14,619 nt of DNA, from the UHGV virus genome UHGV-1690626. One strand, given 5' to 3'. The DNA comes from a virus. Positions within the stretch are counted from its first letter, which is position 1. The number at the start of each line of letters is the position of its first letter. The position numbers were made by a program, and so were the translations under genes. The notes below the pieces were generated by a model. It was not told where the DNA came from and made no database searches. It worked only from the letters and a program-made list of their open reading frames with translations. Shown piece after piece: positions 652-1,460 of this stretch.

Positions 652-680
652 AACCCGCTGTGATGGCGGGTTTTTTGTTG
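652..680 (+). terminator. Rho-independent terminator downstream of lom
   Basis: Stem CCCGC (654-658) / GCGGG (666-670) with a 7-nt loop, flanking A-T pairs, then TTTTTTG (671-677), starting 23 nt after the lom stop. Confidence 0.7.
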
Positions 681-706
681 CCCGTGCAGGGCAAAAATCG
701 TAGATT
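678..706 (+). promoter_or_regulatory. Candidate sigma70 promoter for the hok-like transcript
   Basis: TTGCCC (678-683), 17-nt spacer, TAGATT (701-706); 4/6 match to consensus in each hexamer. Its position would give a leader of about 150 nt before the hok-like ORF. Hexamer matching by eye only. Confidence 0.25.
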
Positions 707-861
707 ATGCGCGGGTGCCTTTCGGCTGATGGCTGGAGGGAGAACCTGAAGGCCTGATGTGGAAAGGCCCCGAGTCAAACATTTTGTTTAACCCGAGGCC
801 CTAACCATCATACCTTAAGCAAGTAGAAGGTTAGCGCCTCTCCACTCAGGAGACAAGCGTT

Positions 862-1002
862 ATGTCGCAAAAATCGCTCATCACCGTCACAATTTGTATG
901 ACGGTAATCTTCACCATCTGGATGTTACACGGCTCGTTGTGTGAGTTCCGGCTGAATTTGTGGGGAGCGGAGTTTGCGGCGTTCTTACAGTGTAAGCAGT
1001 AG
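862..1002 (+). CDS. hok: Hok/Gef-family type I toxin (46 aa small membrane peptide)
   Basis: Not in the ORF track (too short). ATG at 862 preceded by AGGAGA (848-853) with 8-nt spacing. Product MSQKSLITVTICMTVIFTIWMLHGSLCEFRLNLWGAEFAAFLQCKQ has an N-terminal hydrophobic helix followed by the SLCE.R ... E.AAF..C pattern I recognise from Hok/Gef/HokA-type toxins. Stop TAG 1000-1002. Confidence 0.6.
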   Translation: MSQKSLITVTICMTVIFTIWMLHGSLCEFRLNLWGAEFAAFLQCKQ

Positions 1003-1013
1003 GAAAACCGCGA

Positions 1014-1035
1014 CGGGGACGAAAGTCCCCGTCAA
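1014..1035 (+). promoter_or_regulatory. GC-rich stem-loop 12 nt after the hok-like stop, candidate mRNA 3' structure
   Basis: GACGGGGA (1014-1021) / TCCCCGTC (1028-1035) perfect 8-bp stem with loop CGAAAG and no U-tract after it. Hok-family mRNAs are known to end in a structured 3' region; the assignment here is by position only. Confidence 0.35.
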
Positions 1036-1058
1036 CTGGTTGCTGAGGTTCAGCCGAT

Positions 1059-1460
1059 ATGGCACCCGTTTCAGGTGAGAGAATGGACGACAGAATTCTC
1101 CGGTATATGCAGCGTGTTGTGAGAAATTCCCGCAACCCTGAATTTATGAATGAAGTTAAAGACGCCTGCCTTAAAAAGCAGGCGTTTTGCTTTGAAGCGC
1201 CGGATGGTTTTCTGGTGCTGCGTTCTGTGCTCAGTGACGATGGTATCCCTTATGTTCTGGTGTTGCTGGGTGTGTGTACGGGGTGTGCCGGTGTTGAGCG
1301 TTATCTGCCGGAGGTGAAGACATTAACCCGCCTGGCTGGCGGACGCTGGGCCGAATTTCATACGGCAAGACGAGGATTTATCCGGCTGGGAAAACGTCTG
1401 GGCTTTGAGCGAATGCCGGATGATGAGGATGGCTTCATGGTGTTCAGGATAGCAGTCTGA
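1059..1460 (+). CDS. Hypothetical 133-aa protein with C-x6-C ... C-x2-C cysteine pattern
   Basis: ORF track ORF; GAGG 10 nt upstream of ATG 1059 (alternative in-frame ATGs at 1083, 1107, 1146). Cysteines at about aa 37, 44, 73 and 76 (VCTGCAG). No family recognised. Confidence 0.5.
   Translation: MAPVSGERMDDRILRYMQRVVRNSRNPEFMNEVKDACLKKQAFCFEAPDGFLVLRSVLSDDGIPYVLVLLGVCTGCAGVERYLPEVKTLTRLAGGRWAEFHTARRGFIRLGKRLGFERMPDDEDGFMVFRIAV

What the first reader, a model, noticed from the sequence alone, without database searches (positions are those of the whole stretch)
678..1035. Unannotated Hok/Gef-family type I toxin locus between lom and the module
A 46-aa ORF (862-1002) with a good SD encodes a peptide with the Hok-family layout: hydrophobic helix, then SLCEFR ... 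EFAAFLQCK. It sits between a candidate promoter (678-706) and a perfect 8-bp GC hairpin (1014-1035), with a leader of about 150 nt that contains an imperfect extended hairpin (about 767-803) and a 15-codon upstream ORF (757-804). Known hok/sok loci use a structured leader, an upstream mok frame and a short antisense RNA. A minus-strand TATGAT-like element (complement of 807-812) could drive such an antisense RNA across the leader. It could serve as an addiction or abortive-infection element for the prophage.
Basis: partly seen in the sequence, partly recalled or inferred. Interest (0 to 1): 0.5.

Follow-up and report, generated by a model that had tools for sequence, protein, structure and literature searches.

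The report
Second Hok toxin locus in Stx phage
The short gene after lom is a real Hok-family membrane toxin with its antisense-RNA control region, but this exact peptide is already catalogued and reported toxic, so the finding is correct and mostly ordinary.

Summary
The 46-aa ORF at 862-1002 is real. It passes Pfam HOK_GEF (33.2 bits against a cut-off of 22) and is 45% identical to K-12 HokA. RefSeq already names the identical protein "Hok/Gef family protein" (WP_000078907.1). A 2025/26 preprint lists it as Hok 72_1589, cloned it, and reports only three other tested homologs as non-toxic.

Several parts need correction:
- The conserved cassette runs 678-1067. It ends at a 3' element (UCAGCCG..GGCACCC, 1050-1067) that pairs with the mRNA 5' end (713-729), like R1 tac/fbi.
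- The GC hairpin lies at 1012-1033 and has 9 bp. It covaries but has no T-run, so it is not the terminator. Relatives carry a terminator about 20 nt after fbi. This window does not.
- The conserved antisense promoter is TTGTCT-N17-TAACCT (856-828), not TATGAT.
- The leader hairpin (764-802) is much stronger on the minus strand, which fits a Sok-like RNA of about 60 nt.
- The 15-codon uORF is not conserved, and no mok frame reaches hok.

933W and VT2-Sakai carry this locus in addition to the studied hokW-sokW.

The parts
678..1067 (+). Whole conserved hok/sok-type cassette, from promoter to fbi
   Evidence: Sequence similarity to relatives in unrelated contexts begins at the -35 box and stops just after GGCACCC (1061-1067). 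The flanks are unrelated.
678..706 (+). Putative hok mRNA promoter: -35 TTGCCC (678-683), 17-nt spacer, -10 TAGATT (701-706)
   Evidence: Read from the sequence. It is conserved across contexts. It aligns with the hokC promoter region. It falls below the consensus-scan threshold. The start near 713 is inferred from the start of the Rfam model.
713..729 (+). mRNA 5' end, tac-like element: GGGUGCC (713-719) and CGGCUGA (723-729)
   Evidence: It pairs with 1050-1067 in the MFE fold and in the RNAalifold consensus. Helix 1 is paired in 97.9% of cells and helix 2 in 85.5%.
757..804 (+). 15-codon uORF, not conserved as a reading frame and probably incidental
   Evidence: The ATG is present in 46 of 48 variants. 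Stops fall after 1 to 79 codons in all three frames relative to hok.
760..820 (-). Predicted Sok-like antisense RNA of about 60 nt: 5' tail (820 to about 803), hairpin 802-764, then UUUCC
   Evidence: The ends are placed by alignment to the annotated K-12 sokC. The fold has a z-score of -6.3. The hairpin averages -23.3 kcal/mol on the minus strand against -13.0 on the plus strand, with 2-4 G.U pairs in all 24 variants. The transcript itself has not been shown.
828..856 (-). Putative sok promoter: -35 TTGTCT (856-851), 17-nt spacer, -10 TAACCT (833-828)
   Evidence: TTG..N17-18..TAACCT is kept in 46 of 48 variants. It has the same geometry as the promoter upstream of the sokC 5' end. The -10 box contains TAG 832-834 in the hok frame.
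839..853 (+). Anti-SD (UCUCC 839-843) and SD (GGAGA 849-853) hairpin
   Evidence: It forms in the window MFE fold. It is paired in 73% of cells across variants, though the alignment is weak around the loop.
862..1002 (+). hok-family toxin ORF, 46 aa
   Evidence: Entropy summed by codon position is 11.6, 5.2 and 18.2. Thirty-two homologous peptides keep L26 C27 E28, E37 and C44 invariant or nearly so. The identical peptide is 72_1589 in the preprint's list of tested homologs.
1012..1033 (+). Conserved stem-loop after the stop codon, 9 bp with a GAAA loop, not a terminator
   Evidence: It is paired in 99.8% of cells, and 3 pairs show compensatory changes (AU<->GC in 20 sequences; AU<->CG/GC in 27). 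There is no T-run on the + strand.
1050..1067 (+). fbi-like 3' element: UCAGCCG (1050-1056) and GGCACCC (1061-1067)
   Evidence: It is complementary to 713-729. It marks the 3' edge of the conservation block.

Best explanation
Positions 678-1067 are a hok/sok-type type I toxin-antitoxin cassette of the HokA-like clade, sitting like a moron between lom and the next phage gene.

Inferred working model:
- A + strand mRNA starts near 713 and encodes a 46-aa inner-membrane toxin (862-1002).
- In the full-length RNA the 5' end (713-729) pairs with the 3' element at 1050-1067, as tac and fbi do in R1. The SD (849-853) sits in a local hairpin, so the RNA is translationally inert.
- A Sok-like RNA of about 60 nt is made from the minus strand, from the promoter at 856-828, running from about 820 to 760. 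It is fully complementary to the leader and is expected to silence the mRNA, probably by duplex formation and RNase III cleavage.

Shown:
- Family membership of the peptide.
- Conservation and covariation of the RNA elements.
- Toxicity of the identical peptide on overexpression (preprint).

Inferred:
- The transcript ends.
- That the antisense RNA is made.
- The mechanism of repression.

Unlike R1, no mok frame reaches hok, and the cassette's own terminator is missing in this phage context.
For: Toxin:
- Pfam HOK_GEF scores 33.2 bits against a cut-off of 22.
- BLASTP to K-12 HokA gives 45% identity, E 4e-12.
- RefSeq annotates the same ORF as a Hok/Gef family protein.
- Variation is highest at the third codon position, and the C-terminal half is invariant.
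- The identical peptide 72_1589 was cloned as LRP157. Only 19_179, 60_1482 and 69_1540 are reported non-toxic.

RNA elements:
- Rfam sok matches 713-873 at E 1.4e-7.
- The 5'-3' pairing appears in both the MFE and the consensus fold.
- The named helices are 91% paired, against 34-53% when slid.
- The antisense promoter is conserved in 46 of 48 variants.
- The hairpin is stronger on the minus strand in every variant.
- The layout is colinear with the annotated hokC/mokC/sokC locus.

Cassette behaviour:
- The same block occurs after lom in Stx phages, after gpD in P2-like prophages, and next to a seryl-tRNA synthetase gene in E. albertii.
Against: - No mok-like ORF reaches the hok SD, yet mok translation up to the hok SD is mandatory in R1 (PMC9841398).
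- The Rfam sok score is below its gathering threshold (39.8 against 59).
- The NCBIfam HokA and Hok models are below their cut-offs.
- There is no intrinsic terminator after fbi in this window.
- The tac/fbi core is almost invariant, so covariation says little about it.
- Modelling of SD accessibility gave only small, inconsistent shifts.
- No transcript data were available.
Confidence: 0.85

Rival explanations
1. The locus is a silent or decaying hok relic. The toxin ORF is intact, but it cannot be translated from its native mRNA because the mok frame and the cassette's own terminator have been lost.
For: - No ORF crosses the hok start in 30 of 48 variants, and none does in the window.
- Mok translation is required in R1.
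- The terminator found in relatives is absent here.
- The preprint cites earlier work in which the chromosomal hokA, hokB and hokC loci could not mediate post-segregational killing.
Against: - The peptide is under purifying selection across Escherichia, Shigella, Salmonella and Citrobacter.
- The promoter, tac/fbi, the antisense promoter and the hairpins are all conserved, and one hairpin shows compensatory changes.
- An antitoxin gene would not be retained for a toxin that is never made.
Confidence: 0.15
2. The locus is active, and its biological role is to help phage release at induction, as reported for hokW-sokW of Sp5. It would not then serve prophage addiction or abortive infection.
For: - In Sp5, deletion of hokW-sokW delays growth arrest and halves the phage released. 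HokW appears after RecA-dependent induction (PMC8621323).
- This locus lies in the same phages, 933W and VT2-Sakai.
Against: - No experiment addresses this locus.
- The same cassette also occurs in P2-like prophages and near a chromosomal gene.
- R1 hok/sok is reported to reduce T4 plating, so a defence role is equally open.
Confidence: 0.3
3. The ORF is fortuitous, and the region is only the lom terminator plus regulatory sequence for the downstream gene.
For: - The lom terminator lies at 652-672.
- The region is unannotated in the 933W and VT2-Sakai records.
Against: - Pfam E-value is 4e-8.
- Fifty-six homologous proteins were found.
- The cassette occurs without lom and without the downstream gene.
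- The peptide is reported toxic.
Confidence: 0.01

Closest known systems
Hok cluster 72 (sequence 72_1589) in Escalera-Maurer et al., bioRxiv 10.1101/2025.08.07.668861; RefSeq WP_000078907.1 'Hok/Gef family protein'
   Same: The 46-aa peptide is identical. It belongs to a high-abundance cluster. It was cloned as LRP157 and is not among the three non-toxic homologs.
   Different: Nothing differs at the peptide level. That study deliberately did not analyse the Mok, Sok or mRNA elements, and these are described here for this cluster.
hokA of E. coli K-12 (b4455)
   Same: It is the closest characterised toxin, at 45% identity over the full length. Both cysteines are hard-coded (C27 and C44 here). 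The motifs SLCE..E.AAFL.CK are shared.
   Different: The peptide is 46 aa rather than 50 aa. It falls below the NCBIfam HokA equivalog cut-off (38.4 against 89). It sits in a prophage rather than at the cspA-proximal chromosomal site. The K-12 hokA leader is disrupted by IS150, so the leaders could not be compared.
hok/sok (parB) of plasmid R1
   Same: Shared features are the promoter, a structured leader of about 150 nt, antisense RNA against the leader, 5'-3' tac/fbi pairing, a sequestered SD, and a GC stem-loop after the stop codon.
   Different: There is no mok frame. There is no terminator immediately after fbi in this window. The peptide is only distantly related.
hokC/mokC/sokC of K-12
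   Same: The leader is colinear. The hairpin core GCCCCGAG..CCCGAGGCC is homologous. The annotated sokC 5' end maps to about 820 in the window.
   Different: mokC is an in-frame 19-codon extension of hokC. Here the frame is closed by TAG 832-834, which lies inside the antisense -10 box. Peptide identity is 27%.
hokW-sokW of Sp5/933W (Takada et al. 2021, PMC8621323)
   Same: It is a hok-family locus in the same phages, and it has been shown experimentally to be a type I TA system.
   Different: It is a different locus. HokW is 51 aa and starts MKQQKAM. It lies at about 58.7 kb on the opposite strand in 933W, whereas this locus lies at 45.66 kb. Its sequence is absent from the window.

Membership tests
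Hok/Gef toxin family (Pfam PF01848) | Score above the Pfam gathering threshold | tested here: met
   33.2 bits against 22, E 4e-8, covering residues 8-44.
Hok/Gef toxin family (Pfam PF01848) | N-terminal hydrophobic helix, then the conserved L-C-E motif, a downstream Glu and a second Cys or Tyr | tested here: met
   Residues 6-23 are hydrophobic. L26 C27 E28, E37 and C44 are invariant or nearly so in 32 homologues. They correspond, at an offset of 4, to L30 C31 E32, E41 and position 48 of the family logo.
Hok/Gef toxin family (Pfam PF01848) | Toxic when overexpressed | not testable with these tools
   Reported for the identical peptide 72_1589 (LRP157). The preprint names only three other homologs as non-toxic.
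HokA equivalog (NCBIfam NF007290) | Score above the curated cut-off | tested here: not met
   38.4 bits against 89. The peptide is HokA-like at 45% identity but is not a HokA ortholog.
hok/sok type I TA locus (R1 paradigm) | Cis-antisense RNA gene in the leader, with its own promoter and terminator hairpin | tested here: met
   In silico only. TTG..N17-18..TAACCT is kept in 46 of 48 variants. The hairpin is 10 kcal/mol stronger on the minus strand in all variants. The position matches the annotated sokC. The transcript has not been shown.
hok/sok type I TA locus (R1 paradigm) | Long-range tac/fbi pairing between the mRNA 5' and 3' ends | tested here: met
   7 + 7 complementary bases at the two ends of the conserved block. 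They are paired in 97.9% and 85.5% of cells. The core is nearly invariant, so covariation support is weak.
hok/sok type I TA locus (R1 paradigm) | mok reading frame translated up to or across the hok start | tested here: not met
   All three frames are closed between 805 and 835. TAG 832-834, in the hok frame, is invariant. Thirty of 48 variants have no ATG/GTG/TTG ORF crossing the hok ATG, and the remainder are heterogeneous.
hok/sok type I TA locus (R1 paradigm) | Intrinsic terminator just downstream of fbi | tested here: not met
   It is absent in the window. The nearest terminator-like hairpin is at 1162-1185, inside the next ORF. Relatives have CCCGCAGCG..CTGCGGGTTTT about 20 nt after fbi.
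hok/sok type I TA locus (R1 paradigm) | Match to Rfam sok (RF01794) at the gathering score | tested here: not met
   39.8 bits against 59. E is 1.4e-7 over the full model, at 713-873.
hok/sok type I TA locus (R1 paradigm) | 3' processing that activates the mRNA; RNase III cleavage of the duplex | not testable with these tools
   This needs RNA work in a lysogen.
hokW-sokW of Sp5 | Same locus or same peptide | tested here: not met
   The HokW primer sequence is absent from the window. The window has only one Hok-like ORF. hokW lies 13 kb away on the other strand in 933W.

The most novel reading that the evidence does not exclude
The HokA-like cluster-72 loci would form a mok-less branch of hok/sok. 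In this branch the antisense -10 box (TAACCT) itself places an in-frame stop 9 codons before hok. The toxin would then be translated and repressed without the leader-peptide coupling that is mandatory in R1. One possible route is that the antisense RNA switches the leader between a helix pairing 797-808 with 829-840 and the anti-SD/SD hairpin.
Probability: 0.35. Interest if true: 0.4.

Novelty: already known. Interest (0 to 1): 0.2.

Why it matters
There is little general significance. Hok loci are common in Enterobacteriaceae and are enriched in prophages, and this peptide is already annotated and reported toxic.

Two practical points follow.
1. 933W and Sp5/VT2-Sakai carry two hok loci. The published delta-hokW-sokW phenotypes (delayed arrest, half the phage yield) were therefore measured with this second locus still present. 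It could mask or add to the effect.
2. The cluster has every R1-type RNA element except mok. That makes it a convenient natural test of whether mok coupling is universal in the family.

The reference records of 933W, VT2-Sakai and many Stx phages should have this gene annotated.

Tried and rejected
There is no T-run, and both conservation and the 5'-3' pairing continue to 1067.
It lies in the most variable 10-nt bin, with entropy 0.91.
- The uORF at 757-804 as a mok analogue is rejected. Its frame and stop are not conserved.
- I modelled SD and AUG accessibility for the full-length RNA, the 3'-truncated RNA, and the truncated RNA with 762-820 blocked, in 13 variants. The shifts were small and inconsistent (SD unpaired probability 0.17-0.43), so no mok-independent switch could be established.
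- Rfam at gathering thresholds found nothing in the window.
The peptide alignment A1 was used instead.
- Literature searches for a lom-adjacent hok found no dedicated study, only the catalogue preprint.
- Identity with hokW-sokW was considered and excluded.

Full report
**Observation**

The window begins inside an Ail/Lom-family gene that ends at 629 (Pfam Ail_Lom, E 3.7e-31). An intrinsic terminator follows at 652-672.

The reported ORF is present at 862-1002 and encodes 46 aa. AGGAG lies 9 nt upstream of its ATG. The other described elements also exist:
- TTGCCC-N17-TAGATT at 678-706.
- The 15-codon uORF at 757-804.
- A long imperfect hairpin, whose true span is 764-802.
- A minus-strand TATGAT at 812-807.

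The GC hairpin is 2 nt off the stated coordinates. It is GACGGGGAC (1012-1020), GAAA, GTCCCCGTC (1025-1033), which gives 9 pairs.

**Identity of the peptide**

- It scores 33.2 bits on Pfam HOK_GEF, above the cut-off of 22, with E 4e-8.
- Its best NCBIfam match is the HokA model, but below the cut-off (38.4 against 89).
- BLASTP gives 45% identity to K-12 HokA (E 4e-12) and 27% to HokC.
- A database search returned 56 homologues, almost all 46 aa, from E. coli, Shigella and Salmonella, and named "Hok/Gef family protein".
- In an alignment of 32 of them the C-terminal half (GSLCE...GAEFAAFLQCK) is nearly invariant, while the membrane helix varies.
- Across 48 distinct DNA variants, entropy summed by codon position is 11.6, 5.2 and 18.2. 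This is the pattern expected of a translated gene.

**It is already known**

- DNA about 99% identical occurs in Stx2a phages and other E. coli phages, and similar DNA (80-99% identical) occurs in 1551 of 5426 complete E. coli genomes.
- RefSeq annotates the ORF as WP_000078907.1, "Hok/Gef family protein". One RefSeq phage record calls it "MokW-like host killing".
- It is unannotated in 933W (the gap between lom and p67; identical peptide at record position 45660). It is also unannotated in VT2-Sakai (44701-44841).
- A 2025/26 preprint cataloguing 1264 Hok peptides lists this exact sequence as 72_1589, in a high-abundance cluster. The authors cloned it (plasmid LRP157) for arabinose-induced toxicity assays. 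They state that 42 of 45 tested homologs were toxic and name three others as the exceptions.
Both have therefore been passed.

**It is not hokW-sokW**

The studied Sp5 locus encodes a 51-aa HokW that begins MKQQKAM. Its sequence is absent from the window. The window has only one Hok-like ORF. In 933W, hokW lies at 58737-58786 on the opposite strand. So 933W and VT2-Sakai each carry two hok loci.

**Anatomy from comparison**

I collected 87 related loci and aligned 48 distinct versions of the region equivalent to 713-1070 (A2).

- *Cassette limits.* Similarity between contexts starts at the -35 box (678) and ends just after GGCACCC (1061-1067). Beyond these limits the flanks are unrelated. The same cassette sits in three kinds of context:
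  - After lom in short-tailed Stx phages.
  - After a gpD tail gene in P2-like prophages.
  - Next to a seryl-tRNA synthetase gene in E. albertii.

  It therefore behaves as a mobile moron.
- *5'-3' pairing.* The 5' end of the RNA (GGGUGCC 713-719, CGGCUGA 723-729) is complementary to the 3' end of the block (UCAGCCG 1050-1056, GGCACCC 1061-1067). This pairing appears in the MFE fold (-157 kcal/mol, z -8.75) and in the RNAalifold consensus. It matches the tac/fbi interaction that defines R1 hok mRNA.
- *Hairpin after the stop codon.* The 1012-1033 hairpin is an internal element. It is paired in 99.8% of cells and has three pairs with compensatory changes. It has no T-run.
- *Terminator.* Most relatives have a strong terminator (CCCGCAGCG..CTGCGGGTTTTCTTTTT) about 20 nt after fbi. 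In the window that part has been replaced by the next phage gene. The first terminator-like hairpin is at 1162-1185, inside that gene.
- *Overall support.* The four named helices are paired in 91% of cells, against 34-53% when partners are slid by 1-3 columns.

**The antisense gene**

Aligning the window with the annotated hokC/mokC/sokC locus of K-12 places the Sok 5' end at about 820. Its promoter is then at TTGTCT (856-851), 17 nt, TAACCT (833-828). That geometry, TTG plus TAACCT at 17-18 nt, is kept in 46 of 48 variants.

The leader hairpin at 764-802 is far more stable as the minus-strand RNA. It averages -23.3 against -13.0 kcal/mol, because 2-4 G.U pairs become C.A mismatches on the + strand. 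This holds in all 24 distinct versions. The asymmetry is good indirect evidence that the functional hairpin belongs to an antisense transcript of about 60 nt, which ends in UUUCC.

That bin corresponds to the 5' tail of the antisense RNA and its target, which in this family is the fast-evolving specificity region.

**The main departure from the paradigm**

In R1, translation of mok up to the hok SD is mandatory. In K-12, mokC is a 19-codon in-frame extension of hokC.

Here all three frames are closed between 805 and 835. The TAG at 832-834 lies in the hok frame and inside the invariant antisense -10 box. Thirty of 48 variants have no ATG/GTG/TTG ORF crossing the hok start. The uORF from ATG757 ends after anything from 1 to 79 codons.

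So the uORF is not a conserved mok, and this cluster appears to lack mok altogether. How the toxin is then translated and repressed is not established. My thermodynamic modelling of SD exposure was inconclusive. The catalogue preprint explicitly left Mok and Sok unanalysed.

**Mechanism and role**

The most likely mechanism is that of a type I TA locus:
- A stable, folded toxin mRNA.
- A short, constitutively made antisense RNA that silences it.
- Toxin production when the antisense RNA disappears.

The silent-relic alternative is weakened by the joint conservation of the peptide, both promoters and the RNA helices.

The biological role is open. It could be prophage retention, exclusion of other phages, or help with lysis as shown for hokW-sokW.

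**Verdict**

This is a correct identification of an ordinary, already catalogued element, with several corrected parts. There is one modest open question (regulation without mok) and one practical note (a second hok locus in Sp5/933W).

Noticed in passing
window 1059-1460 (+): The downstream 133-aa ORF is called from ATG 1059 in RefSeq. That ATG lies inside the hok fbi element (GATATGGCACCC), which belongs to the cassette in unrelated contexts. ATG 1083, preceded by GGTGAG, is the more plausible start. The protein has no Pfam or NCBIfam match.
   Followed up: partly
window 1162-1194 (+): A terminator-like hairpin (ACGCCTGC..GCAGGCGT followed by TTTGCTTTG) lies inside the downstream ORF. It is the first candidate 3' end for the hok transcript in this phage, which lacks the cassette's own terminator.
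   Followed up: no
933W NC_000924.1 45660-45800 and AF125520.1 58737-58786; VT2-Sakai AP000363.1 44701-44841 and 57778-57827: Both reference Stx2 phages carry two hok loci: this unannotated one after lom, and hokW-sokW near the right end. The published delta-hokW-sokW experiments left this one in place.
   Followed up: yes
L026 (IMG/VR contig 2529293141_000015), equivalent of window 678-750: In this natural variant the promoter and the tac 5' end are replaced by unrelated sequence, while the rest of the cassette, including fbi, is intact.
   Followed up: no
L005, L058, L068 (after a Phage_GPD gene); L007 (next to a seryl-tRNA synthetase gene): The same cassette, with its own terminator, sits at the end of the late operon of P2-like prophages in Salmonella and E. 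coli, and beside a housekeeping gene in E. albertii. It is therefore a mobile moron rather than a Stx-phage feature.
   Followed up: partly
window 1011-1034 (-); L005 1650-1673 (-): The hairpin after the stop codon also scores as an intrinsic terminator on the minus strand (stem followed by CGGTTTTCC), and it does so in a distant relative too. It might stop antisense transcription entering hok from downstream.
   Followed up: no
L052, L057, L060, L072, L077, L080, L081: Seven IMG/VR proviral contigs end 3 nt after the tblastn match to hok, that is, at the stop codon. In those predictions hok is the terminal gene of the provirus.
   Followed up: no
L003 (Xanthomonas pisi), L004 (Planococcaceae MAG), L006 (Vagococcus sp.): Enterobacterial-type hok cassettes appear on contigs assigned to non-enterobacterial genomes. 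L003 is a short contig, and it and L004 are whole-genome-shotgun or MAG assemblies. This looks like assembly contamination rather than a true host range.
   Followed up: no
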